Below are positions 1,534 to 25,676 of a stretch of 32,000 nt of DNA, piece after piece; the stretch's first letter is position 1, and each line of letters starts with the position of its first letter. The translations under genes and the position numbers were made by a program. This stretch comes from an archaeon (GTDB lineage Archaea > Iainarchaeota > Iainarchaeia > Iainarchaeales > 1-14-0-10-31-34): NCBI GenBank assembly GCA_024277355.1, contig JAJRVL010000011.1, positions 79,365 through 111,364 on the forward strand, read 5' to 3'. The notes below the pieces were generated by a model. It ran no database searches and had not been told where the DNA came from. It saw only the letters and a program-made list of their open reading frames with translations.

Positions 1534-2550
1534 ATGAAAAAAATAAGTATTTTAGGTTCAACCGGAAGCATCGGAACACAGACTTTAGATGTAGTAAGAC
1601 AGCATTCTGATGAATTCAAAGTTTTAGGGTTAGCTGCGTTTAATGAAATAGACAAAATAATTGAACAAATTAATGAATTTAAGCCGGAAAAAGTCTGTTT
1701 GTTTGATGAAAAATCAGCTGAAGAGTTAGCAAAAAAAACTGATGTTGAAGTTGTTTCAGGGATGCAGGGATTAAAAGAAATTGCAGTAATAGAAGAAATT
1801 GAGCAGACAATTGTTTCAGTTGTAGGTGCAATAGGAATTGAGCCGACAATGCATGCAATAAAAAAAGGAAAAAATATTGCTTTAGCAAATAAAGAAACTT
1901 TAGTTTCAGCAGGACAGCCAATAATGAAAGAAGTCAAAAAACAAGGAATTGTATTAATGCCAATTGATTCAGAGCATTCAGCTATATTTCAATGTTTGAA
2001 TGGAGAGGAAAGAAAAAAAGTTTCAAAAGTTTTAATTACTTGTTCTGGCGGGCCGTTTAGAGGGAAAAAAATTTCTGATTTTTATAATGCAACTCCTGAA
2101 CAGGCTTTAGGACATCCAACATGGAGTATGGGTTCAAAAATTACAATTGATTCTTCAACTTTAATGAATAAAGGCCTGGAAGTATTGGAAGCAAAATGGC
2201 TGTATGATTTAGAATTAGAAGAAATTGAAGTAGTAATTCATCCTCAAAGTTTAATTCATTCAATGGTTGAATTTACTGACGGGAGTATTATGGCTCAAAT
2301 TGGAACACACGATATGCGTACTCCCATCCAATATGCTTTAACTTATCCAAAAAGATTAACAAATGAATTTCCAAGATTAAATTTATTTGAAAACAATAAT
2401 TTAACTTTTGAAAAACCTGATTACAAAAATTTTCCGTGTTTAGGTTTTGCTTTTGAAGCAGGAAAACAAAAAGGAACTTTAGCTTCAGCAATGAATGCAG
2501 CAAATGAAATTGCTGTCTGGAGTTTTTTAGATAAAAAAATCAAGTACTGA
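1534..2550 (+). CDS. dxr: 1-deoxy-D-xylulose 5-phosphate reductoisomerase; the ORF ends at an in-frame TGA and the conserved C-terminus continues to 2679
   Basis: Motifs ILGSTGSIGTQTLDV, LANKETLV, PIDSEHSAIFQCL, CSGGPFRG and HPTWSMGSKITIDSSTLMNKGLEVLEA. An AGGAG SD box sits upstream of the ATG. Confidence 0.9.
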   Translation: MKKISILGSTGSIGTQTLDVVRQHSDEFKVLGLAAFNEIDKIIEQINEFKPEKVCLFDEKSAEELAKKTDVEVVSGMQGLKEIAVIEEIEQTIVSVVGAIGIEPTMHAIKKGKNIALANKETLVSAGQPIMKEVKKQGIVLMPIDSEHSAIFQCLNGEERKKVSKVLITCSGGPFRGKKISDFYNATPEQALGHPTWSMGSKITIDSSTLMNKGLEVLEAKWLYDLELEEIEVVIHPQSLIHSMVEFTDGSIMAQIGTHDMRTPIQYALTYPKRLTNEFPRLNLFENNNLTFEKPDYKNFPCLGFAFEAGKQKGTLASAMNAANEIAVWSFLDKKIKY

Positions 2551-2679
2551 GAAATCCCGGAAATAATTAAACAAGTAATGGATTTACATAAAAATACTTT
2601 AAATCCTTCTTTAGAGGATTCACTTGAAGCAGATAAAAAAGCAAGAGAAACAGCAAAAAAAATAATAGAAGAAAAATGA
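2551..2679 (+). other. dxr: in-frame continuation of dxr after TGA 2548-2550 (42 codons, conserved C-terminal helical tail)
   Basis: The same frame reads EIPEIIKQVMDLHKNTLNPSLEDSLEADKKARETAKKIIEEK*. It aligns to the E. coli Dxr tail as I recall it (...FTDIAALNLSVLEKM...VDDVLSVDANAREVARKEV). Confidence 0.75.
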
Positions 2680-2788
2680 GAAAAAATGAAAAAACAGCAG
2701 AGTATTCAGTTATTCAGTAATTGATAATTTAATAAACAAAACAAAAAGAAATTTAAGCATTAAAAGAGTTTAATTACAAAGTGATGAA

Positions 2789-3478
2789 ATGAATTATGCA
2801 GTAATTTGTGCCGGCGGAAAAGGAATAAGAATGGACGCCGGAAAAAACAAAGTGTTCTTAAAAATTAAAGGCAAAGAAATAATTGCAAAAACTATTTTAG
2901 TGTTTGAAAAAGCAAAAGAAATAAACGGAATAATTATTTCAATTGGAAAGAATGACATAAAAGAAATACAGGAAATAATTGAAAAAGAAAAATTTGAAAA
3001 AATTAAAGCAGTAATTGAAGGTGGAAAAGAAAGACAGGATTCCGTTTATAATGGAATAAAAAAATTACAGGAATTTGCAGAAAAAGATGACGTGATTTTA
3101 ATTCATAATGCAGCAAACCCTTTTGTAAAAGAAGAAACAATAAACAACTGCATTAAAGCAGCAAAAGAATTTGGAGCAAGTGTTGCAGCACAAAAAGTAA
3201 AAGACACAATAAAAAAAGTTGATGAAGATTTATTAGTTAAAAAAACATTAAACCGAAAAGAATTATGGCAAATGCAGACTCCGCAGGCAATAATTAACCA
3301 CATTGCATTAAAAGCATTTGAAAAAGCTTATTCAGAAAACTTTTATGGAACAGATGACGTTCAGTTAGTTGAAAGAATTCATGGAAAAATAAAAATAGTT
3401 GAATGTTCATATAAAAACATTAAAATTACAACAAAAGAAGATATAGAATTAGCAGAAAGAATTTTAGATGAAAACTGA
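2789..3478 (+). CDS. ispD: 2-C-methyl-D-erythritol 4-phosphate cytidylyltransferase
   Basis: N-terminal AVICAGGKGIRM nucleotide-binding loop, length 229 aa, and IspD-like ...WQMQTPQ... and ...TDDVQLVE... segments. A GTGAT SD-like box sits upstream. Confidence 0.88.
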   Translation: MNYAVICAGGKGIRMDAGKNKVFLKIKGKEIIAKTILVFEKAKEINGIIISIGKNDIKEIQEIIEKEKFEKIKAVIEGGKERQDSVYNGIKKLQEFAEKDDVILIHNAANPFVKEETINNCIKAAKEFGASVAAQKVKDTIKKVDEDLLVKKTLNRKELWQMQTPQAIINHIALKAFEKAYSENFYGTDDVQLVERIHGKIKIVECSYKNIKITTKEDIELAERILDEN

Positions 3479-3493
3479 TTAAAATGAAAAAAA

Positions 3494-4345
3494 TTGTCAG
3501 GAAATTGTTTAAAAGAAAAAAAAACCCCTAAAAAAATAAATATTCCCAGAAGAAAGTTTCTCAAAACCATAACTATCGGAACTACATCAATATCTTTAGC
3601 TTATCTTTTGAGCTGTTTTCCAATTAAGCTATCTAAACTGCCTATAGAAAAAACCCATCAAACTACATTACTTGGAATGATTCATTTTACAGACATGAAA
3701 TCAAGCAAACAAGAAATTATTAATAAAACAAAAACCAATAAAAATACTTTAAAAAGCTACAATAAAGCACTTGAAGCCATTAAAAGACTGCCTGCTGGTT
3801 CAAGAATATTAATTGAAGATGCTACTCCTTTTTCAGTTAACGGAAAAAAGTATTACAGTATTTTTTCTGTTTTATCTGAAAAAGCAAGAGCAAAAGGATT
3901 AATAGTTGAAAATTATCTTCCAAGAAAAGCAATATTCAGGAGAATTGACGCATACAGTTATTTGATTGAAACATTTTATAAAAATAAAAATCCAGAAATA
4001 ATTAAAGCAAGAAAAAAAGAACTAGCTAAAAAATACAATCTTAGTTCAATAAAAAACATTAATTCTGTTGAAGAAGCAAGCACAAAATTATATCAATATT
4101 TTGAACATATGACAAATTTTTTAATTAAATCTTACAGAAAAAAACCAGCATTAATTATTGCAGGAGATTTACATGTTGCTGCATCAAAAAAATGGCTGAA
4201 AAATGCTGAAGATATAACTCCTAAAAACACCAGAAAATACACTGAAAAAATCATGGCAAATTCAAAACAAGAATTTAAAGAACTAGTTGAATTATTTGAA
4301 AAACACAGAGAAAAAATGGTTAAAAAATTAAAAGTTAACGGATGA
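3494..4345 (+). CDS. hypothetical exported protein with a Tat-like signal; weak TraB/GumN/TIKI-like motifs
   Basis: The N-terminus carries RRKFLKTITIGTTSISLAYLLSC, a twin-arginine consensus followed by a hydrophobic stretch. LLGMIHFTD and ALIIAGDLHVAAS resemble the two His motifs of the TraB/GumN family, recalled from memory and weak. The start is probably TTG 3494, since no ATG occurs before the signal. Confidence 0.5.
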   Translation: MSGNCLKEKKTPKKINIPRRKFLKTITIGTTSISLAYLLSCFPIKLSKLPIEKTHQTTLLGMIHFTDMKSSKQEIINKTKTNKNTLKSYNKALEAIKRLPAGSRILIEDATPFSVNGKKYYSIFSVLSEKARAKGLIVENYLPRKAIFRRIDAYSYLIETFYKNKNPEIIKARKKELAKKYNLSSIKNINSVEEASTKLYQYFEHMTNFLIKSYRKKPALIIAGDLHVAASKKWLKNAEDITPKNTRKYTEKIMANSKQEFKELVELFEKHREKMVKKLKVNG

Positions 4346-4404
4346 ATTAATAGTTAGATAAAAAAAAAAGCAACAATATAAAAAGGATTTTATACATAAT
4401 TTTA

Positions 4405-4935
4405 GTGAGAGTTATGCCATTTAGAGTAGGATTAGGACAAGATTCCCATAGGTTTTCTCACGTGCATGAAAAAAGACCTTTGATTTTAGGCGGAATAGAA
4501 ATTAAAGATTGTTTGGGTTTAAAGGGAAATTCAGATGCAGATGTAATACTTCATGCATTATTTAATTCTCTTGCACAATTAATTGGCTGGAAAAGTTTAG
4601 GAAGCCATGCAGACAAAATGGTTAAAGAACAAGGAATAACTGATTCAAAAGAATACTTAAAAGAACCATTAAAAAAACTAAAAGAAATGAATTATGAAAT
4701 TACAACTGTAAGCATCACACTTGAATGCAAAAAACCAAAAATTGATCCGGTATCAAATGAAATAAGAACAAGTGTTGCAAAAATTCTTGGAATAAAAAAA
4801 GAACAAGTAGGAATAATTGCAACAACAGGAGAAAGATTAACTGCTTTTGGAAGAGGGGAAGGAATACAAGCATTTACAGTGATAACAGCAATACATAAAG
4901 ACATCAAAAAATTTACAGGAAAAAAAAATAAATAA
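4405..4935 (+). CDS. ispF: 2-C-methyl-D-erythritol 2,4-cyclodiphosphate synthase (likely ATG start at 4414)
   Basis: FRVGLGQDSHRF and GNSDADVILHAL are the metal and substrate motifs of IspF. Length is about 173 aa. Confidence 0.9.
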   Translation: MRVMPFRVGLGQDSHRFSHVHEKRPLILGGIEIKDCLGLKGNSDADVILHALFNSLAQLIGWKSLGSHADKMVKEQGITDSKEYLKEPLKKLKEMNYEITTVSITLECKKPKIDPVSNEIRTSVAKILGIKKEQVGIIATTGERLTAFGRGEGIQAFTVITAIHKDIKKFTGKKNK

Positions 4936-5004
4936 ATAAATTCGTTCTTTGACGTAATATGCTTGTTAAATCAACGTAAGGTTTAAATAGTTTGAGCTAT
5001 AATA

Positions 5005-6828
5005 TTGGTATTTCGGGAAAAGATTTTTATGGATAAAAATGAATTAAATTTTGGAAAATTACTGGAAAAAATTGATTCTCCAGCAGACTTAAAAAAACTA
5101 AAAGTTGAAGAATTAGAAGAATTGTCTAAAGAAGTAAGAGAAGTTTTAATTAAAACCTGTTCAGCTAACGGAGGACATATTGGGGCAAATTTAGGAGTAG
5201 TTGAATTAAGCATTGCATTGCATTATGTTTTTAATTCTCCTCAAGACAAATTTTTGTTTGATACAAGCCATCAAAGTTATACTCACAAATTATTGACTGG
5301 AAGGAAAAAAGATTTCCATACAATCTGCACTCCAAAAGGAATTCCAAGATTTACAGTAAGAAATGAAACTCCATTTGATAACTGGAGTGCAGGCCATGCT
5401 TCAACTGCATTAAGCGGAGCAATGGGAATGGCTGAAGCAAGAAAAACAAACAAACAAGAATATGAAGTAGTAGCAGTAACAGGCGACGGAGCATTAACCG
5501 GCGGAATGTGTTATGAAGCACTAAATAATATCGGGTATAACCAGACAGATGTAATTTTAATTTTAAATGACAACAAAATGAGCATTTCTCCTAATGTAGG
5601 TGCAATGTATAAACATTTGAAAAAGCTGTCAATGTTTGCAGACGAAAAAATTCCACGAAGAGAAGTAGGAACAATATTTGAAAAATTAGGAATTCAATAT
5701 TACGGGCCGGTTGACGGCCATAACGTAAAAAAATTAGTTGAAGAATTAGAAAATTTAAAAGACTTAAAAGGACCAAAATTGCTTCATGTATTAACCATTA
5801 AAGGAAAAGGAATGGAATACATGGAAAACGATAAAGCAACATGGCATGAGCACCCTGCATTTGATGTTGAAACCGGCCAGCCAATAAAAAAAGGACCTGC
5901 AAAAATAGAAAAAATTGCAGTTCAGGCTTTAATGGAATTAGCAGAACAAGATAAATCAATTGTGGGAATTACAGCAGCAATGCCTGCAGGAACCGCTTTA
6001 ATTGAATTCAGCAAAAAATTCCCTGACAGATTTTATGATGTAGGAATAGCAGAAGAACACGCAGTTACTTTTGCAGCAGGATTAGCTGCAGAAAAAACAA
6101 AACCTTTTGTAGTAATTTACAGTCCTTTTTTGCAGAGAGCTTTTGATCAGGTAGCACATGATGTTGCATTACAGGATTTGCCGGTAAAATTATTGGTTCC
6201 AAAAGCAGCAATAACCGGAGACGGCCCAACACAAGGAGGAATCCTTGACTTCAGTTATCTGAGAATTATTCCAAACTTAATTGTAATGGCGCCAAAAGAT
6301 GAAAACGAATTAAGACATATGATTAAAACCGCACAAGAATACAATAAAGGACCAATTAGTGTCAGATACCCAAAAGGAAATGCTTTAGGAGTAGAATTAG
6401 ATAAAGAAATGAAATCAATTGAAATAGGAAAAGCTGAAATGATTAAAGAAGGAAAAGACATTTCTTTGATTAGTATTGGATTTATGTTAAAAGAAACAGT
6501 TGAAGCTGCTGAGATTTTAAAGAAAGAAGGGATTGATGCTGAAGTAATTAATTCAAGGTTTGTTAAACCATTAGATAGAAAAATGATTTCTGAAAGCCTG
6601 AAAAAAACAGGAAAAGGAATCACAATAGAAGAAAATATTCTTCCCGGAGGGTTTGGTTCAGCTGTCTTGGAAATGCTTGAAGCTAAAGGACTAAATGAAG
6701 TTGTATTGCAGAGAATAGGCGCACCAGACGAATATATTGGTTATGACAGTCCAAATGAAATCAAAAAACAGTTTGGAATGGATGCAGAAAGCATAGTAAA
6801 AAAAGTTAAAAAAATGCTTGGAAAATAA
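5005..6828 (+). CDS. dxs: 1-deoxy-D-xylulose-5-phosphate synthase (likely ATG start at 5029)
   Basis: GGHIGANLGVVELSIALHYVF, SHQSYTHKLLTGR, the TPP motif VAVTGDGALTGGMCYEALNN, and the transketolase-like C-terminal domains. About 600 aa. Confidence 0.93.
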   Translation: MVFREKIFMDKNELNFGKLLEKIDSPADLKKLKVEELEELSKEVREVLIKTCSANGGHIGANLGVVELSIALHYVFNSPQDKFLFDTSHQSYTHKLLTGRKKDFHTICTPKGIPRFTVRNETPFDNWSAGHASTALSGAMGMAEARKTNKQEYEVVAVTGDGALTGGMCYEALNNIGYNQTDVILILNDNKMSISPNVGAMYKHLKKLSMFADEKIPRREVGTIFEKLGIQYYGPVDGHNVKKLVEELENLKDLKGPKLLHVLTIKGKGMEYMENDKATWHEHPAFDVETGQPIKKGPAKIEKIAVQALMELAEQDKSIVGITAAMPAGTALIEFSKKFPDRFYDVGIAEEHAVTFAAGLAAEKTKPFVVIYSPFLQRAFDQVAHDVALQDLPVKLLVPKAAITGDGPTQGGILDFSYLRIIPNLIVMAPKDENELRHMIKTAQEYNKGPISVRYPKGNALGVELDKEMKSIEIGKAEMIKEGKDISLISIGFMLKETVEAAEILKKEGIDAEVINSRFVKPLDRKMISESLKKTGKGITIEENILPGGFGSAVLEMLEAKGLNEVVLQRIGAPDEYIGYDSPNEIKKQFGMDAESIVKKVKKMLGK

Positions 6829-6947
6829 TTACAAAAAGAATAACAGCTAATTATAAAAGAATAAAAATAATAGAAATAAAAAATTAAGGAAAAAAATAAA
6901 ACTAATAAATTACTAATTAATCAAAAACTAATTAAAAAAAAGAAAAG

Positions 6948-6967
6948 TTGATTGCTAAAGCAATCAA
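6948..6967. terminator. perfect 8-bp hairpin (TTGATTGC-taaa-GCAATCAA) between convergent dxs and the 6964-7215 gene
   Basis: The inverted repeat is read directly from the sequence. It overlaps the stop codon of the minus-strand gene and lies in an A/T-rich spacer. A role as a bidirectional terminator is inferred only. Confidence 0.35.
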
Positions 6968-7215
6968 ACACCAATTTTTAATTTTGAAGGCTGAATAATA
7001 AAACCCCAATCAGCTACTGTAAATTTTAATGGAGAACCGCCATCTCCGCCACCCATCAAAATTACAGGAACAGAATTGCTTTCTTCGTCATCTTTAGGAA
7101 CAGATGTTACTCCATCTTCAATTTCATCCCCAACAACACCAATTTGATTCCACACTGCAGAAGTAAACCCTGCAAAAGCAATTAACAAAACTGCTAAAAT
7201 TAATAATTTTTTCAT
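6964..7215 (-). CDS. small secreted hypothetical protein (83 aa)
   Basis: The N-terminus MKKLLILAVLLIAFAGFTSA looks like a signal peptide. An acidic middle section follows. No family recognised. Confidence 0.5.
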   Translation of the reverse strand: MKKLLILAVLLIAFAGFTSAVWNQIGVVGDEIEDGVTSVPKDDEESNSVPVILMGGGDGGSPLKFTVADWGFIIQPSKLKIGV

Positions 7216-7280
7216 TTAATAAAACCTCCAAATAAACAAAACAATTAGTATATGTGTGTTTTACTTTAAAAAGTTTTAGT

Positions 7281-8120
7281 TTACAAAAAATCCCTTGATT
7301 TTTTCCATTCAATTTCAGCTTTCTCACAAAAAGAAATAATTTTTTGTTTTTGTTCTGAAACTAAACCTTTCCAGTCAAACAAAACAAAATCAACTTTTTC
7401 AGAAGTCTGTTTAATCATTTGTTCAAATAAAACAAAATCAACTTCATTAACATAATATTTAGATAAAATATGAGAAACCGCAATATCTGTTCTGGCCATT
7501 ACTTTAGAAAAAGAAGGACAATAATGGGTTCCGCCTACTCCAATTGCTGTCTTGAAATTTGAATTAAAATTAAAAAAAGAATCCATAATAGAAAAAGCAA
7601 TTATTTTTCCTGCCTGCTTATTTTTCCATTCGGTTTCATTGCTTCCAATTTCAATAAAAACTGCAGGTTTAGACAAAAAAGGGCCGTGATGAGTTTGCTC
7701 CATTAAAACAGGCCAGTCAAAATTTTCTTTTTTTGTTTGTTCAAGTAAATTCAAAAAAAAGTTTTTCATTACTAAAGAAGAAACTGAAACTAAAGTTTTT
7801 TCTTTTCCGCCTAAATCAGCTTTACTAAAATTTCCTATTGGGTGAACAGAAAAAGTTTTTTGTCCTGATTCACTTGAATGCTTTGAAGCAAAAATAAACA
7901 AATCAGTTTCTAATTCATCTAAAAAATCTGCGGTAACTTGTTTTTCATTAATTAAAATTAAATCAAAAATTTGTTTTTCATTAGAAAAAGAATAAATTGA
8001 ATTTGAATTAAATTGTTTTTCTGTTTTCTTAAAATCAAAGCATTCAATTAAATTAGAATAAATGTTTAATCCTGCTAAATCTGTTTTAGAAACAATAATT
8101 GAAATTTTATTAAAGTTCAT
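7281..8120 (-). CDS. dtdA: D-aminoacyl-tRNA deacylase, archaeal type (DtdA/DTD2-like)
   Basis: Length is about 279 aa. The N-terminus is IIVSKTDLAGLNI and later segments read ...THHGP... and ...GVGGTHYCP..., matching the archaeal DtdA family as I recall it. Confidence 0.75.
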   Translation of the reverse strand: MNFNKISIIVSKTDLAGLNIYSNLIECFDFKKTEKQFNSNSIYSFSNEKQIFDLILINEKQVTADFLDELETDLFIFASKHSSESGQKTFSVHPIGNFSKADLGGKEKTLVSVSSLVMKNFFLNLLEQTKKENFDWPVLMEQTHHGPFLSKPAVFIEIGSNETEWKNKQAGKIIAFSIMDSFFNFNSNFKTAIGVGGTHYCPSFSKVMARTDIAVSHILSKYYVNEVDFVLFEQMIKQTSEKVDFVLFDWKGLVSEQKQKIISFCEKAEIEWKKSRDFL

Positions 8121-8137
8121 AAGAAAAAAACAAATAA

Positions 8138-8608
8138 TTATTTTTTATAACTTAAGGATAACTGGCCAAAAACATCTTCTAAATTATTTAAAGTTTGAAT
8201 TAAGTTTTTTGTAACGTAATGATTGAAAGATGCTTTGAGGTCATCTCGTTCAGCAAAAGGCGCAGGATTAAATAAATACGCCTGTTTTTTTCTAACTAAT
8301 AAATCAAATTCTTTCATTCGGTTTAAATGATATCTTAAAAGTTTTTCAGAGATTTTTTTTGAATTCTTTTTTTTAATATAAGACTGGATGTTTGGAACAG
8401 TAGGAAGCGTTTTAGAAAAATTCAAATAAAATAATGCATCTAATACATCTAAAACAGTGGTTCTGGATTCTTTTTCTGAAAGCAAACCAAAAGACAAAGC
8501 AAACCACCTTAACATTGAACGTTTAGTTAATTTTACATTAGGGGGGAAATCCATTGATTTAATTATGAAAGTTTTTCTAACTAAACAGCTTTCAGGTAAT
8601 TCAGACAA
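8138..8608 (-). CDS. hypothetical winged-helix-like protein
   Basis: 156-aa ORF with a TTG start. The segment EKLLRYHLNRMKEFDLLVRKKQAYLFNP resembles a wHTH recognition helix plus wing. No specific family recognised. Confidence 0.45.
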   Translation of the reverse strand: MSELPESCLVRKTFIIKSMDFPPNVKLTKRSMLRWFALSFGLLSEKESRTTVLDVLDALFYLNFSKTLPTVPNIQSYIKKKNSKKISEKLLRYHLNRMKEFDLLVRKKQAYLFNPAPFAERDDLKASFNHYVTKNLIQTLNNLEDVFGQLSLSYKK

Positions 8609-8741
8609 TTTAACACCAAAACATTATTTCCTTTTCAAATAGATTATTCTCATTGATTTATTTAAGTTTTTTGGTTAAATTAAGCAAAAATTGAATAAAC
8701 GTTTAAAATAAGTTAATGTCATATAATTTTACTGATTCTAT

Positions 8742-9104
8742 ATGAGTATTTCAATTAATACAAGCTTTCTTCCATTCAAGCTTGACTTAAAAGAAAAAAA
8801 GCCTGTAAGAATGGATATTGAAGTAATAAACAGATATGATAAACCAAAAAAAGTTATTTTAGAGTTATTAGCTTCAAGTCAGATTGGATTTAACAAGACA
8901 AGCGCAACAAAAGAAAAATATGAAATTGGATTGCTTGAACCAGGACAAAGCAAAAACATCAAAATAGATATTTTTCCTAAAAATTTTGCAATAAAAAGAG
9001 AAGAAGTAATTTCAATTACTGCAACAGAAATAACTATTGAAGATTCAGGTTATAGTTTTCCTTCAAAAAAATTCAAGAAAAACGTCGGCTTAGAAATAAA
9101 ATAA
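8742..9104 (+). CDS. hypothetical small beta-rich protein (120 aa)
   Basis: Clean ORF with coding-like, purine-rich composition. No motif recognised. Confidence 0.45.
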   Translation: MSISINTSFLPFKLDLKEKKPVRMDIEVINRYDKPKKVILELLASSQIGFNKTSATKEKYEIGLLEPGQSKNIKIDIFPKNFAIKREEVISITATEITIEDSGYSFPSKKFKKNVGLEIK

Positions 9105-9105
9105 T

Positions 9106-9309
9106 TCACTTTTTTTTAGTTTTTTTTATTTCTTTTTTTTCTTCTTTTAGTTCTTCCTGAAATTCTTCTCGGTCTTCGTCATCTAAGCCTAATTGTTTAA
9201 GCATTTTATCATGGTCTTGCGGAGTAAGCTTGTCATACCATTCATTCCATATTTTATCTTCGGCTTTAGAAACGATTTTTCCTTCTATAGGTTTTTTTCG
9301 TTTAGGCAT
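9106..9309 (-). CDS. small highly charged protein (67 aa) with N-terminus MPKRKKP
   Basis: The sequence reads MPKRKKPIEGK...EELKEEKKEIKKTKKK. It shares the MP+Lys N-terminal signature with five other ORFs in the window. Confidence 0.5.
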   Translation of the reverse strand: MPKRKKPIEGKIVSKAEDKIWNEWYDKLTPQDHDKMLKQLGLDDEDREEFQEELKEEKKEIKKTKKK

Positions 9310-9404
9310 AAATAAAAAAATCCTTGAATAATATTTAAAATACTTTCCTATAAATCAAAAAATCAATAAAAGTATTTAAAGGAATTAACTCATTAATCAA
9401 TAAA

Positions 9405-10013
9405 ATGAGCAAAATTATTTCAAATCCTGACAAAAACCAGAATATAATTCTGATTGTTCCTGAAGAAAAATACCAGAATACAATTCAAGCATTACTAAAA
9501 GAACTGGTTTCAGCAAAAAAAACAATTGTTTTTATTTCAGTTAATAAAACAAAAAAAGCATTAGAAAAAGAATTAAAAGAAAATAAAATTTCAACAGAAA
9601 AAATTTATTTTGTTGACTGTGTAAGCAAAAGTATTTCAAAAGGAAAAATTTCATGGAGCGACGAAAAAAACCAATATGTCGATAACCCAACTTCTTTAAC
9701 TCAAATAAGCCTTGCAGTATTTAAATTATTTGACCAGACAAAAATGGATTATTTAGTTTTAGATTCAATTAACACTTTGCTGATATATAATGAAGAAAAA
9801 GAAGTGTTGAAATTTGTACATCACACAACAGGCAAACTAAAAGAAAACAACAAAACCGGTGTGTTTGTTTATTTAAAGGAAGAAATGAATCAAACTTTGC
9901 TGAAAAAGTTTTCTCAGTTTTCCGATAAAATAATTGAAGCAAATCCCCCTGAAAAAAAAGAATTTATTAGAAAAAAAGGTTCAATGAATTCATTTGAAGA
10001 AATAAAGCTTTAA
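9405..10013 (+). CDS. hypothetical RecA/KaiC-fold-like protein with no obvious P-loop
   Basis: The strand/helix pattern (IILIVP..., TIVFISVN..., IYFVDCVS..., DYLVLDSINTLL) resembles degenerate KaiC/RecA-superfamily proteins. No GxxxxGK[ST] is present. Confidence 0.45.
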   Translation: MSKIISNPDKNQNIILIVPEEKYQNTIQALLKELVSAKKTIVFISVNKTKKALEKELKENKISTEKIYFVDCVSKSISKGKISWSDEKNQYVDNPTSLTQISLAVFKLFDQTKMDYLVLDSINTLLIYNEEKEVLKFVHHTTGKLKENNKTGVFVYLKEEMNQTLLKKFSQFSDKIIEANPPEKKEFIRKKGSMNSFEEIKL

Positions 10014-11348: not shown

Positions 11349-11443
11349 TTTTGTTTATTTATATAGCTTTGCGGAAAAAAAGTAAACAAAAATTTAGGAA
11401 ATAAGGAAAATAATAAAAACTTGTTTATACTTTAATTGATTTT

Positions 11444-11893: not shown

Positions 11894-11940
11894 TTTTATA
11901 CATAACGAAAGGTTTTTATTAAAACAAATTTATTATTTGT

Positions 11941-14627: not shown

Positions 14628-14654
14628 AAAATTTAGGGTTAGTTTAAGCAACCA

Positions 14655-18892: not shown

Positions 18893-19420
18893 CTATTTTT
18901 TTATAAATTCAGTCCATTTCTTAAGTGAAGAAACTGCATTAATCATTTTAGGCATATTTTGTTTTATGAATTTGTTTTTCTCTAAATCGGTTTTGGGTTT
19001 TTGTTTTTTGTAGTTTTCATAAACTTGTTTCCCATTAAAATCAACAAAAGCAATTCTTGCACTAAAATTATTTTCTTTCAGCATCACTGAATCCCCAGTT
19101 ATTACTGCAATATGAAATGGATGAGAAAGTAAAGATTCTGCTAACTGGTTTGAAGTTTTTATTTTTTTTCTTTTTAAGTCTTTTTTTAATTCATTAAAAT
19201 CAGCAAAAAAATAAAATCCGCCTTTAGGTTTAGTTGCTTTTATTCCTTTAATTTCATTAAATTGTTCACTGAAATATTTTCCTGTCATTTCATGAATTTT
19301 TCTTGTTATTTCAAAGTATTCTTCTATTTCTTTGTTTTTTGAATAAGCAGTTATCCCTGCAAACTGAATTGGAGTTGAAACATTAGAGTAAATTGTTGCT
19401 GCAACTTTTTTGAAATCCAA
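18893..19420 (-). CDS. aminotransferase C-terminal part, in frame with 19427-20209 and separated from it by TAA plus 2 codons
   Basis: Read-through gives ...LPKNCSK*LSLDFKKVAATIYSNVSTPIQFAGITAY.... The total length of 439 codons fits a full-length aminotransferase. Confidence 0.7.
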   Translation of the reverse strand: MDFKKVAATIYSNVSTPIQFAGITAYSKNKEIEEYFEITRKIHEMTGKYFSEQFNEIKGIKATKPKGGFYFFADFNELKKDLKRKKIKTSNQLAESLLSHPFHIAVITGDSVMLKENNFSARIAFVDFNGKQVYENYKKQKPKTDLEKNKFIKQNMPKMINAVSSLKKWTEFIKK

Positions 19421-19426
19421 ACTTAA

Positions 19427-20209
19427 TTATTTTGAACAGTTTTTTGGTAAAATACAGTGCCCTAATCTATATCCCCCTGCTGACCTGTCTTTAGATAAAC
19501 CATTTGTAACAAAAGTTCCTTCTGGATAAATTTTTCCCATTGAAACAAAATTTCTGAAGTTATAGGAAGTTAAAGCATAAATTTCATCTGCGATAACAAA
19601 AACATTGTGTTTTCTGCATATTTTAGTTATTTCTTCTAATTCTTTTTTTGAATAAAGATTTCCTGTTGGATTATGAGGATTATTCAAAACAAGAATGCGT
19701 TGATCTTTATGCAGTTTAAATAAAAATCCATCTAAATCTTTTGGCTGAATTTTATAATCAAATTCTGGTTTTAAATAAAAAGTATGAAAATGTTTTTTTA
19801 ATAATTTTATTTCAGGATAATAGCCAATCCATGAAGGCGAAGGAATAATTATATCTCCTTTAATTATTTCAAAAATCATGTGAATTAAGGTTTTTGTTCC
19901 TGGGCCAATTATTATCCTTGAAGGATTAATTTCTAATCCAAAATGCTTTTTATTGAATTCTGCAACTTTTTTTCTTAATTCAATTATTCCTTGTGCATCA
20001 GAATAATGGCTTTTATCTGAGTTTTGTCCTAAGGCTTTTGCAATTACTTCTGGGACATGAAAAGGACTTTGACCAAAAGATAAAGCAGAAAAATCAAAAT
20101 TGCATTTCATTTTAGTGCATTTTTTTCTTTGTTCTGCAATTAATATTCCTGTCCTGAGGTTTTCAGGCATTTTAATTGCATTAATTTCTTTTTCAACTAA
20201 AATTTTCAT
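19427..20209 (-). CDS. class I/II (aspartate-family) aminotransferase, N-terminal 260 aa, ending at an in-frame TAA
   Basis: NNPHNPTGN and the PLP-lysine region GLSKDRSAGGYRLG. Confidence 0.8.
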   Translation of the reverse strand: MKILVEKEINAIKMPENLRTGILIAEQRKKCTKMKCNFDFSALSFGQSPFHVPEVIAKALGQNSDKSHYSDAQGIIELRKKVAEFNKKHFGLEINPSRIIIGPGTKTLIHMIFEIIKGDIIIPSPSWIGYYPEIKLLKKHFHTFYLKPEFDYKIQPKDLDGFLFKLHKDQRILVLNNPHNPTGNLYSKKELEEITKICRKHNVFVIADEIYALTSYNFRNFVSMGKIYPEGTFVTNGLSKDRSAGGYRLGHCILPKNCSK

Positions 20210-20269: not shown

Positions 20270-20392
20270 ATGCTTTCGGATTATTTTAAACAGTTTTTAA
20301 GAGAAGATAAATCTGAAAAACAAATGAAATTAATTCAAAAAATGGCTGAAACAAGAAAAAGTGTTTCTGAAGCAATGGGTTCTCATAGAGAG
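20270..20392 (+). other. N-terminal 41 codons of the GltB-like gene, upstream of in-frame TAA 20393-20395
   Basis: ATG 20270 opens MLSDYFKQFLREDKSEKQMKLIQKMAETRKSVSEAMGSHRE*. The same frame continues LKFDGLSFVPAQLSVFPLL..., which matches the family-typical FDDL.F.PAQL segment, and runs into 20477. Confidence 0.6.
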
Positions 20393-20476
20393 TAATTAAA
20401 ATTTGACGGTTTAAGTTTTGTTCCTGCACAGCTTTCTGTTTTTCCTTTATTAAAAAAAGAAAAAGTAAACACTAAA

Positions 20477-21508
20477 GTGAAAATTGGAACTGTCTGCAAA
20501 AAACCTTTTGAGATTTCCACGCCTATAATGATTTCCCATATGAGTTTTGGAGCTTTAGCAAAAGAAATTAAAATAGCATTAGCTAAAGCTTCTGCGATGT
20601 CTGGAACTCTTTCTGCCAGCGGAGAAGGCGGAATGTTAAATGAAGAAAGAAAACAAGCTGATAAATATATTATTGAATTTGCTTCAGGAAGATTTGGTGT
20701 TTCAGAAAAAAGACTTGCTTTAGCTGATGGAATTGAAATAAAAATTGGCCAGGCGGCAAAAGCAGGAATGGGCGGGCATTTGCCTGCAAAAAAAGTAACA
20801 AAAGAAATAGCTAAAGTAAGAGAAATAAAAGAAGGAACTGACGCAGTAAGCCCTGCAAGACATTTAGATATTAAAACAAAACAGGGTTTAAAAGAAAAAG
20901 TCAACTGGCTTAGAAGCATTAATAAAGGCCCAATTGGAATTAAGATTGCTTCAGGGAATATAGAAAAAGATTTAGAGTTTGCTTTGTTTGCTGAACCTGA
21001 TTTTGTTACTTTTGATGGGGTTTCCGGCGCTACTGGTTCTGCACAAAAATTAATCAAAGACAATGTTGGAATACCTTCTATTGCTGCATTAAGCCGTGCA
21101 CAAAATTTTTTAGAAGAAACAGGACAAAAAAATAAAGTTCAGTTGTTTATCACTGGCGGATTAAGAACCAGTGCAGATTTTACTAAAGCATTAGCTTTAG
21201 GAGCAGATGCGGTTTATATTGCTACGGCTGCTTTAATGGCTTTAGGGTGCCAGCAATACAGGATTTGTGAAACAGGAAACTGCCCTATGGCGATTACAAC
21301 CCAAAATGAATTTATAAGAAAAAAAATTGATATTGAAAAACGAGCTTTAGGTGTTTCAAATTTTATTAATACAAGCACTAAAGAAATAGAAGATTTCTGC
21401 AGGTTAATGGGATTAAATGACATTAAAAAACTTTCAAAAGAAAATTTACGATCAATGGATGAATTAACTGCTAAAACCACTAAAACCAAAATGTTTTATG
21501 AAAAATGA
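20477..21508 (+). CDS. glutamate synthase domain-2-like FMN/Fe-S oxidoreductase (archaeal GltB-type)
   Basis: Segments PIMISHMSFGALAKE, SGEGGM, IEIKIGQGAKAGMGGHLP-like (here IEIKIGQAAKAGMGGHLPAKKV), GVSGATGSA and CQQYRICETGNCPMAITTQ. The annotated GTG start is probably not the true N-terminus. Confidence 0.85.
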   Translation: MKIGTVCKKPFEISTPIMISHMSFGALAKEIKIALAKASAMSGTLSASGEGGMLNEERKQADKYIIEFASGRFGVSEKRLALADGIEIKIGQAAKAGMGGHLPAKKVTKEIAKVREIKEGTDAVSPARHLDIKTKQGLKEKVNWLRSINKGPIGIKIASGNIEKDLEFALFAEPDFVTFDGVSGATGSAQKLIKDNVGIPSIAALSRAQNFLEETGQKNKVQLFITGGLRTSADFTKALALGADAVYIATAALMALGCQQYRICETGNCPMAITTQNEFIRKKIDIEKRALGVSNFINTSTKEIEDFCRLMGLNDIKKLSKENLRSMDELTAKTTKTKMFYEK

Positions 21509-22337: not shown

Positions 22338-22844
22338 TTGGCTGAAGATATTCTTTTTATGGTAAAAAAATTAAGGGTCGGTTGGTTTTCTTTTACTTGT
22401 GGAGAAGATTCAACAATAGTTTTTTCTGAACTGCTTAATGATCATTATTTTGACTGGATTAAATTAATTGACTTTAAATACATTAAAATTCTGAAATCAA
22501 AAAATGTATTGGATAAATTAGATGTTGCTTTTGTTGAAGGTGCTATTTCAAATGACAAAGACGAAAAATTCCTTAAAGATATAAGAAAAAAATCAAAGAA
22601 AGTTGTTGCAATTGGTTCCTGCGCCTGTAATGGAATGCCTTCAGCTCAAAGAAATGATTTTGATAAAAAAACAGTAAATGAAATTAATTTTTTGCTTAAA
22701 AAATTCAGGCATAAAAAGAAGGTGCTTCCATTAAATAAAATAATCAAAGTTGATGAGTTAGTTAATGGGTGTCCAATGCAGGAAAAAGTTTTCCTTAAAG
22801 TATTAAATGATTTATTAATTGAATTTGGTGTAATTAATGCATAA
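22338..22844 (+). CDS. [NiFe]-hydrogenase small subunit, minimal form with proximal-cluster domain only (likely ATG start at 22359)
   Basis: VGWFSFTCGEDS, VAIGSCACNGMP and VNGCPM correspond to the proximal [4Fe-4S] ligand positions of NuoB-like hydrogenase small subunits. Its stop overlaps the large-subunit ATG (ATGCATAA). Confidence 0.75.
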   Translation: MAEDILFMVKKLRVGWFSFTCGEDSTIVFSELLNDHYFDWIKLIDFKYIKILKSKNVLDKLDVAFVEGAISNDKDEKFLKDIRKKSKKVVAIGSCACNGMPSAQRNDFDKKTVNEINFLLKKFRHKKKVLPLNKIIKVDELVNGCPMQEKVFLKVLNDLLIEFGVINA

Positions 22845-23424
22845 AATCGAGGATATTACAATTGATAGTTTAACTAAAGTTGAAGGGCATTCAGAGGTTA
22901 AAGTAAAAGTTAAAGATAAAAAAGTTCAGGACGTTCAGTTCAATATAATTGAAAATAAAAGATTTTATACTCAGGCAATAAGAGGTAAAAATTTCAGAAT
23001 GATAACTCAGTTAGTTCCAAGAATTTGCGGGACCTGCAGTATTGCTCATTTAATGGCTTGTATTGAAGCAGTAGAAAAAACATTAGATGTAAAAGTATCA
23101 AATCAAACAAAAATTTTAAGGCGGCTTCTTGTTAATGGTTTAATGATCAGAGATCATGCATTGCATTTGTATTTGTTTACTTTGCCTGATGTTTTTGGAG
23201 TGGATTCTGTTTTAGAGTTTGATGAAACAAAACACGAATTACTGCATGATGCATTTAAAGTTAAAGCAGTAGGAAACAAACTTGATACTATTATTGGAGG
23301 AAGAGCAGTTCATGCAACTTTTCCTGCTGTAGGAGGATTTACTCATTTTCCTTCCTTTGAAGAAATCAAAGAAGTAATTAAATTATTAAAAAACTCAAGA
23401 CCTGCAGTATTAAGATTAATTTAA
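22837..23424 (+). CDS. [NiFe]-hydrogenase large subunit, N-terminal 195 aa, ending at an in-frame TAA
   Basis: L1 nickel-binding motif RICGTCSIAH. Confidence 0.85.
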   Translation: MHKIEDITIDSLTKVEGHSEVKVKVKDKKVQDVQFNIIENKRFYTQAIRGKNFRMITQLVPRICGTCSIAHLMACIEAVEKTLDVKVSNQTKILRRLLVNGLMIRDHALHLYLFTLPDVFGVDSVLEFDETKHELLHDAFKVKAVGNKLDTIIGGRAVHATFPAVGGFTHFPSFEEIKEVIKLLKNSRPAVLRLI

Positions 23425-23514
23425 ATTTACTTTAATTGTCCTCTTTCACTGGAAAGAGAAACAAATTTTGTTGGATTAGTTGAAAAAAATTATGGTTTTC
23501 TTGAAGGAAAAATA

Positions 23515-24114
23515 ATGGATTCAGAAGGCAGTTGTTTTGAAGAACATGAATATTTAGAACATCTTGAAAAAACTGAATTTGATCGTTCTGAGGCAATAGG
23601 CTATAAATTTGAAGGAAAAGATTATATGGTTGGTGCTTTAGCAAGAATGAATTTAAATAAAAATGCTTTAAACAAAAAAACACGAAAAGACTTAAAAAAA
23701 TATTTGAAAGTGTTTCCTTCAAAAAATATTTTCCATAATAATCTTGCTCAAGCAATCGAAATACTGCATTGTATTGATGATTCAATCGAAATACTTGAAA
23801 ACAATAAATTCAAAAAAGAGCATTTAGCTGAAGTAAAAGTAAAAGCCGCAACAGGAATAGGAGTAATTGAAGCGCCAAGAGGAACACTTTATTACAGGTT
23901 AAATATTCAAAAAGATGGGAAAATAAAAGACGGAAACATTATTGTTCCAACATCACAAAATCAAGTTAACATAAATGACGATATAAAAAAATTAGTTGAA
24001 GACAACATAAACAAACCAAAAAAAGAAATTGCTTATGAAATAGAAAAATTAATCAGAGCTTATGATCCGTGTTTAAGTTGTGCTGCCCATTTTATTAAAT
24101 TAAAGTTTGAATAA
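23515..24114 (+). CDS. [NiFe]-hydrogenase large subunit, C-terminal part; the frame is open and continuous from 23425
   Basis: L2 motif DPCLSCAAH near the C-terminus, and EAPRGTLYY. Codons 23425-23514 (IYFNCPLSLERETNFVGLVEKNYGFLEGKI) contain no stop and lie in the same frame as 22837. Confidence 0.85.
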   Translation: MDSEGSCFEEHEYLEHLEKTEFDRSEAIGYKFEGKDYMVGALARMNLNKNALNKKTRKDLKKYLKVFPSKNIFHNNLAQAIEILHCIDDSIEILENNKFKKEHLAEVKVKAATGIGVIEAPRGTLYYRLNIQKDGKIKDGNIIVPTSQNQVNINDDIKKLVEDNINKPKKEIAYEIEKLIRAYDPCLSCAAHFIKLKFE

Positions 24115-24843: not shown

Positions 24844-24878
24844 ACCACAAGTTATGTATAAGACTATTTTAGTTTTAC
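24842..24878 (+). repeat. copy of the AAACCA-N-TTATGTATAAGACTA-TTTTAG module, between the YbjQ stop and the metallopeptidase start
   Basis: It shares AGTTATGTATAAGACTA (17/17) with the copy at 14432-14448. Confidence 0.5.
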
Positions 24879-25178
24879 TGCTGTTCCATAAACAAGAATT
24901 TCTGCCGCAGAAGCCATTACTTGTGAAGTTGTAAATCTTACATTGATTACAGCATCTGCACCTAGTTTTTCTGCTTCCCTCTGCAACCTTATAACTGCTT
25001 CTTCTCTGGCTTCAGTTAATAATTCAGTATATTCTTTTAGTTCTCCGCCGACAATTTGTCTTAATCCAGATAAAATATCTTTTCCAAACCATTTTGCTCT
25101 GATAGTGTTTCCTCTAACTAATCCAAGTGTTTGTTTTATTTCTTTTCCTGCTACAAAATCTGTTGAAACAATAATCAT
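24864..25178 (-). CDS. YbjQ/UPF0145-family protein
   Basis: Full-length match to the family pattern: MIIVSTDFVAGKEI...GLVRGNTIRAK...GGELKEYTELLTEAREEA...GADAVINVRF...YGTAVKL. Confidence 0.85.
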   Translation of the reverse strand: MIIVSTDFVAGKEIKQTLGLVRGNTIRAKWFGKDILSGLRQIVGGELKEYTELLTEAREEAVIRLQREAEKLGADAVINVRFTTSQVMASAAEILVYGTAVKLK

Positions 25179-25193
25179 TTTTTCACTCTTTTT

Positions 25194-25331
25194 TTATTTA
25201 AATTCTATTACATCTGCTTTTATAATAAGGCTTTCCGAGGCTTTTGCGTTCAAAAGAATTCCTCCAGAAGAATTTGAATCAGTTCTTGCTAAACCAACAA
25301 CTAATTCTCCTTTATAACCCATATTTCCTTT
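25194..25331 (-). other. in-frame continuation of the PPC-like gene after TAA 25332-25334
   Basis: KGNMGYKGELVVGLARTDSNSSGGILLNAKASESLIIKADVIEFK* fits the second half of the PPC fold. The combined length is 121 codons. Confidence 0.5.
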
Positions 25332-25676
25332 TTAAAGCAGTACGCCGTGTAAAGAGGTTACTTTGAATTCGTCTTCCACAAATTTTTTCCGGAAGATGCC
25401 TCCCCCAAAAACACTTAATTCAACTTCTTTTATTTTTCCTTCAACACTTCTTATTGACGCTCTTTGAACTTTGTTTTCAGAAAACGCCTGCTTTAATCCT
25501 GACATTATATCTTCGCCGTCTTCAAATTCCATTGTAATCGTTTTTTTTCCTTCCATAAAAACAACCCCTGCTCTATTTTTATTTGTACTTAATACAATAA
25601 ACCTAAATAAAACTAAATAAAAATAAATTGCTTTAATCCCAACAAAACATGAAAATTTATTAACAAAAACAAACAT
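25332..25676 (-). CDS. PPC (DUF296)-like protein, N-terminal part ending at an in-frame TAA (likely ATG start at 25556)
   Basis: MEGKKTITMEFEDGEDIMSGLKQAFSENKVQRASIRSVEGKIKEVELSVF...FKVTSLHGVLL* resembles the first half of a PPC domain. The upstream 40 codons of the ORF are hydrophobic junk. Confidence 0.55.
   Translation of the reverse strand: MFVFVNKFSCFVGIKAIYFYLVLFRFIVLSTNKNRAGVVFMEGKKTITMEFEDGEDIMSGLKQAFSENKVQRASIRSVEGKIKEVELSVFGGGIFRKKFVEDEFKVTSLHGVLL

What the first reader, a model, noticed from the sequence alone, without database searches (positions are those of the whole stretch)
1534..25676. Five conserved genes each broken by one in-frame stop (4x TAA, 1x TGA), none by a frameshift
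Five genes carry a single in-frame stop:
- dxr: TGA 2548-2550
- class-I aminotransferase: TAA 19427-19429, minus strand
- GltB-domain-2 FMN oxidoreductase: TAA 20393-20395
- [NiFe]-hydrogenase large subunit: TAA 23422-23424
- PPC/DUF296-like protein: TAA 25332-25334, minus strand

I checked codon by codon that the same frame continues after each stop. The separated parts still carry family-typical sequence: the dxr C-terminal tail, the hydrogenase DPCLSCAAH Ni-binding motif, the aminotransferase C-terminal domain, and FDGLSFVPAQLS just after the stop in the GltB-like gene.

That is roughly 1 gene in 9. All five are substitutions to stop, none is an indel, and four lie within 6.8 kb. Possible explanations are very recent nonsense pseudogenisation in a reduced genome, consensus or assembly artefacts, or context-dependent read-through or partial recoding.

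TAA, TGA and TAG all act as apparently genuine terminators elsewhere in the window. A simple global reassignment therefore does not fit.
Basis: partly seen in the sequence, partly recalled or inferred. Interest (0 to 1): 0.8.

Follow-up and report, generated by a model that had tools for sequence, protein, structure and literature searches.

The report
Six young nonsense mutations, DPANN archaeon
Six otherwise intact, conserved genes in this small AT-rich archaeal genome each carry one very recent single-base change to a stop codon; this looks like fresh gene inactivation or a data error, not a changed genetic code.

Summary
All five in-frame stops sit at the stated coordinates inside conserved domains. 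I found a sixth: TAA 28911-28913 in the TFE-alpha gene.

The window comes from a DPANN-type archaeon (GC 28.8%). The stops are present in the deposited NCBI assembly, whose called proteins are the fragments.

At four sites, close relatives carry a sense codon one base away:
- dxr: GGA>TGA
- hydrogenase large subunit: GAA>TAA
- PCC: GAA>TAA
- TFE: CAG/CAA>TAA

The aminotransferase and GltB-like sites cannot be polarised.

Other findings:
- No frameshifts were seen.
- 83 kb from five related loci contain no in-frame stops.
- dN/dS against the closest hydrogenase relative is 0.089 upstream of the stop and 0.092 downstream, so the lesion is very young.
- TAA, TGA and TAG end 25, 9 and 4 genes at the same C-termini as homologs. 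The stops align with Gly, Glu and Gln. They share no sequence context or RNA structure. None is shared with a relative. Reassignment, Sec/Pyl and programmed read-through are therefore unsupported.

Best reading: recent genuine nonsense substitutions in dispensable genes or dispensable gene tails (about 0.55). Main rival: consensus or template-damage artefact (about 0.25). Tolerated suppression remains possible but has no positive evidence (about 0.07). Reads are needed to decide.

The parts
1534..2679 (+). dxr (DXP reductoisomerase), 381 codons, with in-frame TGA at 2548-2550 (codon 339)
   Evidence: Three Pfam DXR domains; DXPR_C spans the stop. The column is Gly in all 11 relatives of 77-84% identity. 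The codon is GGA in L087 (91% nt identity) and in L088. This is a G>T change at codon position 1.
18893..20209 (-). Class I/II aminotransferase, 438 codons, with in-frame TAA at 19427-19429 (codon 261)
   Evidence: The Aminotran_1_2 match covers residues 43-379. Eighty full-length homologs of about 438 aa were found. The column is variable (R/K/K/E/N/K). Relatives' codons are AGG, AAA, AAA, GAA, AAT, AAA. The ancestral codon is undetermined.
20270..21508 (+). GltB-domain-2-like FMN oxidoreductase, 412 codons, with in-frame TAA at 20393-20395 (codon 42)
   Evidence: Glu_synthase match, E = 5.8e-109. The 41 N-terminal residues before the stop align with homologs. The column is T/V/S/I in homologs of about 52% identity. 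The ancestral codon is undetermined. The deposited gene call (P0241, 343 aa) restarts at GTG 20477.
22837..24114 (+). [NiFe]-hydrogenase large subunit (group 3-like), 425 codons, with in-frame TAA at 23422-23424 (codon 196)
   Evidence: Homologs of 425 aa align end to end. The closest relative, L086 (90% aa, 86% nt identity), has GAA at this codon. dN/dS is 0.089 upstream and 0.092 downstream.
25194..25556 (-). PCC/DUF296 protein, 120 codons, with in-frame TAA at 25332-25334 (codon 75)
   Evidence: The PCC domain match (residues 6-104) spans the stop. The syntenic ortholog in L001 is intact at 120 aa and has GAA (Glu) at this codon.
28869..29396 (-). TFE-alpha (TFIIE alpha), ancestral CDS of 175 codons, with in-frame TAA at 28911-28913 (codon 162).
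   Evidence: The L001 ortholog (175 aa) aligns 1-175 across the stop. The stop column is Gln (CAG). Nine of the 13 post-stop codons are identical in amino acid, and the ancestral TAA terminator is retained.

Best explanation
These are six independent, very recent single-nucleotide nonsense substitutions in the genome of one DPANN-type archaeon. They are young pseudogenes, or truncation alleles still at high frequency in the population, and were not yet followed by further decay.

Shown:
- At four sites the nearest relatives carry a sense codon one base away (GGA>TGA, GAA>TAA twice, CAR>TAA).
- The stops occur only in this genome.
- Downstream sequence is as constrained as upstream.
- The normal terminators are unchanged.

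Inferred:
- The mutations are real rather than technical.
- They persist because the affected functions are dispensable. These are the MEP-pathway dxr, an aminotransferase and a GltB-like oxidoreductase lying in a region that breaks synteny with relatives, a two-subunit hydrogenase, and a PCC protein.
- In the one clearly essential gene hit (TFE-alpha), only the last 13 residues are lost.
- A recent relaxation of selection, a bottleneck, or a transient mutator state would give several single-hit genes of the same age. A G>T-prone mutator, as from oxidised guanine, would fit best. This is speculation beyond the data.
For: - Stops confirmed inside conserved domains.
- The fragments are what was called on the deposited 111-kb NCBI contig.
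- Ancestral sense codons seen in relatives: GGA in L087 and L088, GAA in L086, GAA in L001, CAG in L001.
- dN/dS against L086 is 0.089 upstream and 0.092 downstream of the hydrogenase stop. Window-lineage changes are 28 synonymous, 19 mostly conservative missense and 1 stop; the sister lineage has 13 and 11.
- dxr has one private deviation at an otherwise invariant column and the hydrogenase has two. Each site also departs from the consensus in the closest relative (P0365 has the same residue; P0362 has different residues), so none looks like a recent random error.
- 0 in-frame stops in 83 kb of relatives.
- The only housekeeping gene hit is truncated at 92% of its length. SerRS, Trm56, Xer, GlnA, PPDK and dxs are intact.
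- The error rate needed to give six nonsense changes by chance is about 1-4 per kb, since nonsense changes are about 6% of all coding substitutions (about 17% for GC>TA alone is my own estimate from the codon counts). In my judgement that is far above a normal consensus error rate for a 111-kb contig. The assembly also shows no homopolymer indels despite many A7-A9 runs.
Against: - No reads are available, so an artefact cannot be excluded.
- Six nonsense lesions and no frameshift is odd for ordinary pseudogenes (p is about 0.016-0.12 depending on the assumed indel share).
- All six being single-hit and equally young needs a special history.
- Three of the four polarised changes are G>T, a class that is only about 8% of this lineage's long-term substitutions. 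The expected G>T share among nonsense changes is about 17%, giving p about 0.02 post hoc. G>T is also the classic oxidative-damage artefact.
- No second genome of the same species exists in the collections to show that the alleles are inherited.
Confidence: 0.55

Rival explanations
1. Technical artefact. The stops are consensus errors in the deposited assembly. Possible sources are G>T changes from oxidised guanine fixed during whole-genome amplification of a single cell or a very low-input sample, very low local coverage, or a polishing step that corrected indels but left substitutions.
For: - Only substitutions and no frameshifts.
- Three of four polarised changes are G>T on the coding strand. 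This is more than the lineage's own spectrum predicts, p about 0.02-0.06.
- All lesions are 'age zero': downstream constraint is unchanged.
- The species is seen only once in the collections, so nothing corroborates the alleles.
Against: - Six nonsense errors imply about 30-100 total errors in 27 kb of coding sequence (nonsense fractions as). In my judgement that is far above normal consensus error for a 111-kb contig.
- Window-private GC>TA changes are not elevated over 2,920 aligned codons: 7.8% against 7.6% and 6.4% in relatives. They are not elevated in the hydrogenase either: 4 of 48 against 1 of 24. These tests have low power.
- No excess of private missense changes at invariant columns in dxr or the hydrogenase.
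- The one hit in an essential gene lies in its last 8%, as if filtered by selection.
- One stop is C>T, not G>T.
Confidence: 0.25
2. Tolerated stops. The organism reads through UAA and UGA at some frequency, through suppressor tRNAs (for example Glu-UUA or Gly-UCA) or a leaky aRF1. The six genes still yield some full-length protein, and the stops are nearly neutral.
For: - Clean single stops with fully conserved downstream sequence and no frameshifts.
- High density confined to one genome.
- The TGA falls on a Gly column, as in table 25. Two TAA fall on Glu.
- Four of the six stops lie at variable, surface-like columns.
Against: - TAA ends 25 genes and TGA ends 9, at homolog-matched C-termini.
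- Extensions to the next in-frame stop are ordinary: median about 5-6 codons by eye from the listed values, and one tandem stop.
- The stops map to three different amino acids, so at least two suppressors would be needed.
- No shared 3' context and no shared RNA structure (4 of 6 have z about 0).
- No suppressor tRNA in the window.
- No stop is shared with any relative, so there is no sign that such codons persist over time.
- I found no literature precedent in DPANN.
Confidence: 0.07
3. Functional split genes of the Nanoarchaeota type. The two halves are translated separately and assemble.
For: DPANN archaea are known for split genes (my own background knowledge). The gene caller did call C-terminal fragments.
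Against: - No start codon follows the stops. The next start is 30 codons downstream in the hydrogenase gene and 27 in the GltB-like gene, which deletes conserved residues such as F211 and F221 in the hydrogenase.
- All relatives have single intact genes.
- The dxr and TFE tails are only 42 and 13 residues.
Confidence: 0.02

Closest known systems
Young nonsense pseudogenes in genomes under relaxed selection or drift (recently host-restricted bacteria, mutator lineages)
   Same: Single-base changes of a sense codon to a stop in otherwise intact orthologs. They affect dispensable metabolic genes, and essential genes are spared except at a C-terminal tail.
   Different: There are no accompanying frameshifts, deletions or second lesions. 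All six look equally young. G>T is over-represented. It is not verified that the alleles are real.
NCBI genetic code 25 (UGA = Gly; Gracilibacteria and Absconditabacteria)
   Same: The single in-frame TGA falls on a Gly column that is invariant among close relatives.
   Different: This is an archaeon. TGA terminates 9 genes in the window, including dxr itself. There is only one in-frame TGA in about 9,000 codons. Relatives have GGA at the site. No tRNA-Gly(UCA) was seen.
Oxidative-damage (8-oxoguanine) G>T / C>A sequencing artefact
   Same: Substitutions only, and three of four polarised changes are G>T.
   Different: From my background knowledge, such artefacts are normally low-frequency read errors and do not reach the consensus of a long contig. 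No general GC>TA excess was detected in the window. One stop is C>T.
Ambiguous stop/sense decoding in ciliates (Condylostoma, Parduczia)
   Same: The same codons appear both in frame and as terminators.
   Different: In those organisms in-frame stops are abundant in most genes and map to fixed amino acids (Gln, Trp). Here there are six in 39 genes, they map to Gly, Glu and Gln, and they are absent from relatives.

Membership tests
Stop-codon reassignment (tables 4, 25, ciliate-type) | The reassigned codon is no longer used, or is rarely used, as a terminator | tested here: not met
   Terminal stops are TAA 25, TGA 9, TAG 4. The ends coincide with homolog C-termini for dxr, the hydrogenase, Xer, PCC and others.
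Stop-codon reassignment (tables 4, 25, ciliate-type) | The codon recurs in frame in many genes, at columns holding one particular amino acid | tested here: not met
   There is 1 TGA (Gly) and 5 TAA (Glu, Glu, Gln, K/R/E/N, T/V/S/I) in about 9,000 codons.
Stop-codon reassignment (tables 4, 25, ciliate-type) | Shared by related lineages | tested here: not met
   0 in-frame stops in 83 kb of five related loci. Relatives have GGA, GAA or CAG at the sites.
Stop-codon reassignment (tables 4, 25, ciliate-type) | A cognate tRNA with a stop-matching anticodon, or an altered release factor | not testable with these tools
   Only 4 tRNAs lie in the window (Met-CAT, Lys-TTT, Lys-CTT, Phe-GAA).
Selenocysteine / pyrrolysine recoding | In-frame UGA at a Cys/Sec column (or UAG at a Pyl site) in a known Sec/Pyl protein | tested here: not met
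   The TGA aligns with Gly in DXR. The hydrogenase Cys motifs are ordinary Cys codons. There is no in-frame TAG.
Programmed stop-codon read-through | The stop is conserved among relatives, with a stimulatory context or downstream structure | tested here: not met
   The stops are absent from relatives. The +4 bases are G, T, T, A, A, C. Fold z-scores are about 0 for 4 of 6 sites, and no structure is shared.
Recent nonsense pseudogene | An in-frame stop inside a region homologous to intact orthologs, one base away from the orthologous sense codon | tested here: met
   Met for dxr, the hydrogenase, PCC and TFE. The aminotransferase and GltB-like sites are compatible but not polarised.
Recent nonsense pseudogene | Relaxed constraint or further lesions after inactivation | tested here: not met
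   dN/dS is 0.089 upstream and 0.092 downstream. Each gene has a single lesion. This is compatible only with a very young age.
Recent nonsense pseudogene | The allele is really present in the organism's DNA | not testable with these tools
   There are no reads, and no second genome of the species.
Split genes (Nanoarchaeota type) | Each part has its own start codon and together the parts cover the whole protein | tested here: not met
   The next start lies 27-30 codons after the stop in the GltB-like and hydrogenase genes, which loses residues that are invariant in the hydrogenase alignment.

The most novel reading that the evidence does not exclude
This DPANN archaeon tolerates UAA and UGA inside genes because termination is leaky, or because it carries ochre and opal suppressor tRNAs (for example Glu-UUA and Gly-UCA). 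That would be an early, ambiguous stage of stop-codon capture. No TAA reassignment is known to me in any archaeon or bacterium.
Probability: 0.06. Interest if true: 0.9.

Novelty: new member of a known kind. Interest (0 to 1): 0.3.

Why it matters
If the alleles are real, this genome has been caught just after losing a hydrogenase, the MEP-pathway reductoisomerase and three other functions. It would then be a useful snapshot of how reduced symbiotic archaea shed genes, and possibly of a G>T-biased mutator episode.

If they are errors, it is a caution. A public assembly carries about one false stop per 5 kb, which splits genes in downstream protein catalogues; the fragments are already in the 15-billion-protein collection.

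The low-probability suppression reading would be the first ochre-codon ambiguity in prokaryotes that I know of. Nothing here argues for it positively.

Tried and rejected
Searches that found nothing useful:
- Exact look-ups of window proteins, and of P0241, in the gene-position index found nothing. The rest of the source contig could therefore not be read.
- The metagenome scan with the GltB-like protein gave only relatives of about 50% identity.
- The genome scan with the aminotransferase gave a best hit of 63%, in other archaeal phyla. The source genome is not among the species representatives.
- Viral-contig scans were empty.
- 90%-identity clusters gave sister sequences only for the hydrogenase, dxr and a 139-aa ORF, and none for the aminotransferase, GltB-like, PCC or TFE genes.
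- Two literature searches found no report of in-frame stops or TAA recoding in DPANN.

Tests that were uninformative:
- A mutator or damage signature. Private-substitution spectra over 2,920 aligned codons (window, L088, L090) and in the hydrogenase gene show no GC>TA excess. The expected excess is only a few events, so the test has little power.
- Clustering of the stops is not significant (p = 0.12).
- A read-through structure. Folds of the 100 nt after each stop show nothing shared.

Ideas rejected:
- Older, decayed pseudogenes that would support long-running gene decay. The 1.07-kb ORF-free stretch at 13583-14654 has no Rfam hit and no readable gene remnant. The gap at 6829-7280 holds a small secreted-protein ORF.
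- An apparent premature stop in the sister dxr fragment L087. It is Illumina adapter sequence.
- The odd 'EFDR' motif in the hydrogenase, which I suspected was an error. The sister P0362 has EFEK at the same place, so it is a lineage feature.

Full report
**What the window is**

The window has GC 28.8% and holds about 39 genes. Pfam annotation gives:
- the N-terminal part of a pyruvate phosphate dikinase, running off the left end;
- a bacterial-type MEP operon (dxr, ispD, an unassigned 283-aa ORF, ispF, dxs);
- D-aminoacyl-tRNA deacylase, GlnA, an Lrp-type regulator, an inositol monophosphatase;
- a squalene/phytoene synthase and several orphan ORFs;
- a class I aminotransferase and a GltB-domain-2-like FMN oxidoreductase;
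- a two-subunit [NiFe] hydrogenase;
- YbjQ, a PCC/DUF296 protein, a Xer-type recombinase;
- TFE-alpha, aTrm56 and SerRS.

It also has four tRNAs: Met-CAT, Lys-TTT, Lys-CTT and Phe-GAA.

The best hydrogenase and dxr homologs are from DPANN-type archaea, named Woesearchaeota, Aenigmarchaeota, Micrarchaeota or Diapherotrites by their depositors. The left 13.5 kb is syntenic with L088 (GCA_043819075.1) and L090. The right 9 kb is syntenic with L001. L090 and L001 lie on the same 103-kb JGI contig.

**Checking the observation**

Translation through each site confirms a single in-frame stop with the frame continuing:
- dxr: TGA 2548-2550, codon 339 of 381
- aminotransferase: TAA 19427-19429, codon 261 of 438
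- GltB-like: TAA 20393-20395, codon 42 of 412
- hydrogenase large subunit: TAA 23422-23424, codon 196 of 425
- PCC: TAA 25332-25334, codon 75 of 120

Pfam domain matches run across the stops in dxr, the aminotransferase and PCC. Full-length homologs align end to end, without gaps at the stops, for the hydrogenase, dxr and the aminotransferase. In the GltB-like gene the 41 residues before the stop still align with homologs.

The stops are in the public record. A 100%-identical 343-aa GltB fragment (P0241) and the other fragments are in the protein collection, as called on one 111,364-bp NCBI contig. They are hydrogenase 195 and 199 aa, dxr 338 aa, aminotransferase 260 and 175 aa, and PCC 114 and 42 aa.

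**A sixth stop**

I ran tblastn with the relatives' proteins against the window. The 175-aa TFE-alpha of L001 aligns over its whole length, across the TAA at 28911-28913. That stop aligns with Gln (CAG). Thirteen more codons follow (LDLIENLLKNLSK, against LQLIEVALKKLSK in L001), and the ancestral TAA terminator is still in place.

So six of about 39 genes carry one in-frame stop each. The same comparison showed no frameshift in any gene that has a relative.

**Is it more than background?**

The reciprocal search of 83 kb from five related loci (L001, L002, L086, L088, L089, L090) found no in-frame stop in a conserved gene body. The only hit lies upstream of the true start of hydS in L086. Fisher p is about 0.003-0.01.

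The apparent clustering, five of six within 9.5 kb, is not significant (p = 0.12).

**What the stops replaced**

- Hydrogenase: the 90%-identity cluster of the N-terminal fragment contains a full-length 425-aa sister, P0362. Its DNA (L086; 86% nt and 90% aa identity) has GAA where the window has TAA.
- dxr: the column is Gly in all 11 relatives of 77-84% identity. The codon is GGA in L087 (91% nt identity) and in L088.
- PCC: the syntenic L001 ortholog has GAA.
- TFE-alpha: L001 has CAG.
- Aminotransferase: the column is variable. Relatives' codons are AGG, AAA, AAA, GAA, AAT, AAA.
- GltB-like: the column is T/V/S/I in homologs of about 52% identity.

Four sites are therefore polarised: three G>T and one C>T, all at codon position 1. 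Two sites are undetermined.

**Age of the lesions**

Against L086, dN/dS in the hydrogenase gene is 0.089 for codons 1-195 and 0.092 for codons 197-425, with dS about 0.65-0.69.

Changes were polarised with L002 and L001 as outgroups:

| Lineage | Synonymous | Missense | Stop |
|---|---|---|---|
| Window | 28 | 19 (mostly conservative) | 1 |
| Sister (L086) | 13 | 11 | 0 |

The window's missense changes are split evenly on either side of the stop.

At otherwise invariant columns the window has two private deviations in the hydrogenase and one in dxr. At each of these sites the closest relative also departs from the consensus, so they are lineage features and not recent errors. P0365 has the same residue; P0362 has different residues.

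Each gene has exactly one lesion. The stops are therefore very young relative to the divergence from the nearest known relative.

**Recoding and read-through**

- Terminal stops are TAA 25, TGA 9 and TAG 4. dxr itself ends in TGA. The hydrogenase, PCC and TFE genes end in TAA at the same place as their orthologs.
- The distance to the next in-frame stop after terminators is ordinary.
- The six stops align with Gly, Glu, Glu, Gln and two variable columns. One suppressor tRNA cannot explain them.
- The base after the stop is G, T, T, A, A and C.
- Folds of the 100 nt downstream have z about 0 at four sites and share no structure.
- No suppressor tRNA lies in the window.
- The TGA is not at a Cys/Sec column, and there is no in-frame TAG.
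- No relative shares any of the stops.
- I found no literature on such a phenomenon in DPANN.

Global reassignment, Sec/Pyl and programmed read-through fail their defining tests. General leaky termination or unlinked suppressor tRNAs cannot be tested from the window.

A split-gene reading also fails. The next start codon is 27-30 codons after the stop in the GltB-like and hydrogenase genes.

**Real mutation or artefact?**

From the window's codon usage and its lineage spectrum, about 6% of random coding substitutions would be nonsense. My estimate from the same codon counts is about 17% if only GC>TA changes occur. Six stops would then imply roughly 30-100 changes in 27 kb. In my judgement that is far above the normal consensus error of a contig long enough to reach 111 kb. 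There are also no homopolymer indels despite many A7-A9 runs.

Private-substitution spectra over 2,920 aligned codons:

| Class | Window | L088 | L090 |
|---|---|---|---|
| GC>TA | 7.8% | 7.6% | 6.4% |
| GC>AT transitions | 37% | 13% | 15% |

GC>TA is not elevated in the window. The window lineage is instead dominated by GC>AT transitions, which fits its lower GC (28.8% against 35%). The expected excess under a damage model is only a handful of events, so this test is weak.

Points in favour of an artefact, or of a recent mutator:
- G>T makes up three of the four polarised stops, where about 17% is expected (p about 0.02, post hoc).
- There are no frameshifts (p about 0.016-0.12).

Point in favour of real, selection-filtered mutations:
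- The clearly essential genes are intact. The one hit in such a gene (TFE-alpha) removes only its last 13 residues.
- The other five hits are in metabolic genes. Two of them (the aminotransferase and the GltB-like gene) lie in a region that breaks synteny with relatives, and their best homologs are outside DPANN.

**Verdict**

The best-supported reading is a set of very recent genuine nonsense substitutions: young pseudogenes or truncation alleles (confidence about 0.55). A consensus or template-damage artefact is the main rival (about 0.25). Tolerated suppression is a low-probability but interesting alternative (about 0.06-0.07). No tool available here can separate these without the reads or the rest of the genome.

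The phenomenon belongs to a known kind, nonsense-disrupted genes, so its interest is modest. What is slightly unusual is that all lesions are nonsense, with a G>T lean, and all are equally young.

Noticed in passing
It aligns with Gln (CAG) of the L001 ortholog. Thirteen conserved codons and the ancestral terminator follow it.
   Followed up: yes
window 1534-6828; L088 10001-15236; L090 10001-14866; L089 10001-11155: A bacterial-type MEP operon (dxr, ispD, ORF, ispF, dxs) lies next to PPDK in this archaeon. Its DPANN relatives L088 and L090 share it; L089 shares PPDK and dxr, and the rest was not checked. The nearest non-DPANN dxr homologs are clostridial, at about 55-57% identity. No ispE is recognisable: the 283-aa ORF at 3494-4345 has no credible Pfam, NCBIfam or PDB hit, and relatives have an unrelated ORF of about 150 aa there.
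   Followed up: partly
window 13583-14654: About 1.07 kb has 19-33 stops in every reading frame, no tRNA and no credible Rfam match. This is unusually long for a compact genome. A small XRE-type HTH ORF follows at 14655-14852 (minus strand).
   Followed up: partly
window about 13.6-22.3 kb: This stretch breaks synteny with L090 and L001. It holds orphan ORFs, a squalene/phytoene synthase, the aminotransferase and the GltB-like gene. The aminotransferase's best hits are 59-63% identical, in Thermoplasmata, Methanosarcinales and Nitrosopumilaceae. The GltB-like gene's best hits are about 53% identical, mostly bacterial, and it lacks their N-terminal rubredoxin domain. This may be an acquired island.
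   Followed up: partly
window 1-13582 compared with L088 and L090: GC>AT transitions make up 37% of the window lineage's private substitutions, against 13-15% in the two relatives. AT>GC changes are half as frequent. This matches GC 28.8% against 35%, and indicates a strong recent drive towards AT in this lineage.
   Followed up: partly
L087 1-655: This ENA 'contig' (coverage 1.4x) is a single insert flanked by Illumina adapter sequence on both sides. Its apparent premature stop in dxr lies in the adapter.
   Followed up: yes
window 25232-25334 (minus strand): The 100 nt after the PCC stop fold unusually well (-25.2 kcal/mol, z = -3.0, 0 of 200 shuffles as good). The other sites do not, apart from a weak -6.6 kcal/mol fold after the TFE stop.
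   Followed up: no
window 22338-24114; L001 9525-11278; L086 2159-3914: The hydrogenase locus has only a small (Oxidored_q6) and a large subunit, in this window and in relatives. A DUF2769 ORF and a 122-aa orphan lie upstream in the window only. The hydS ORF's TTG start at 22338 is probably too far upstream; the relatives start at the MVKKLRV motif.
   Followed up: partly
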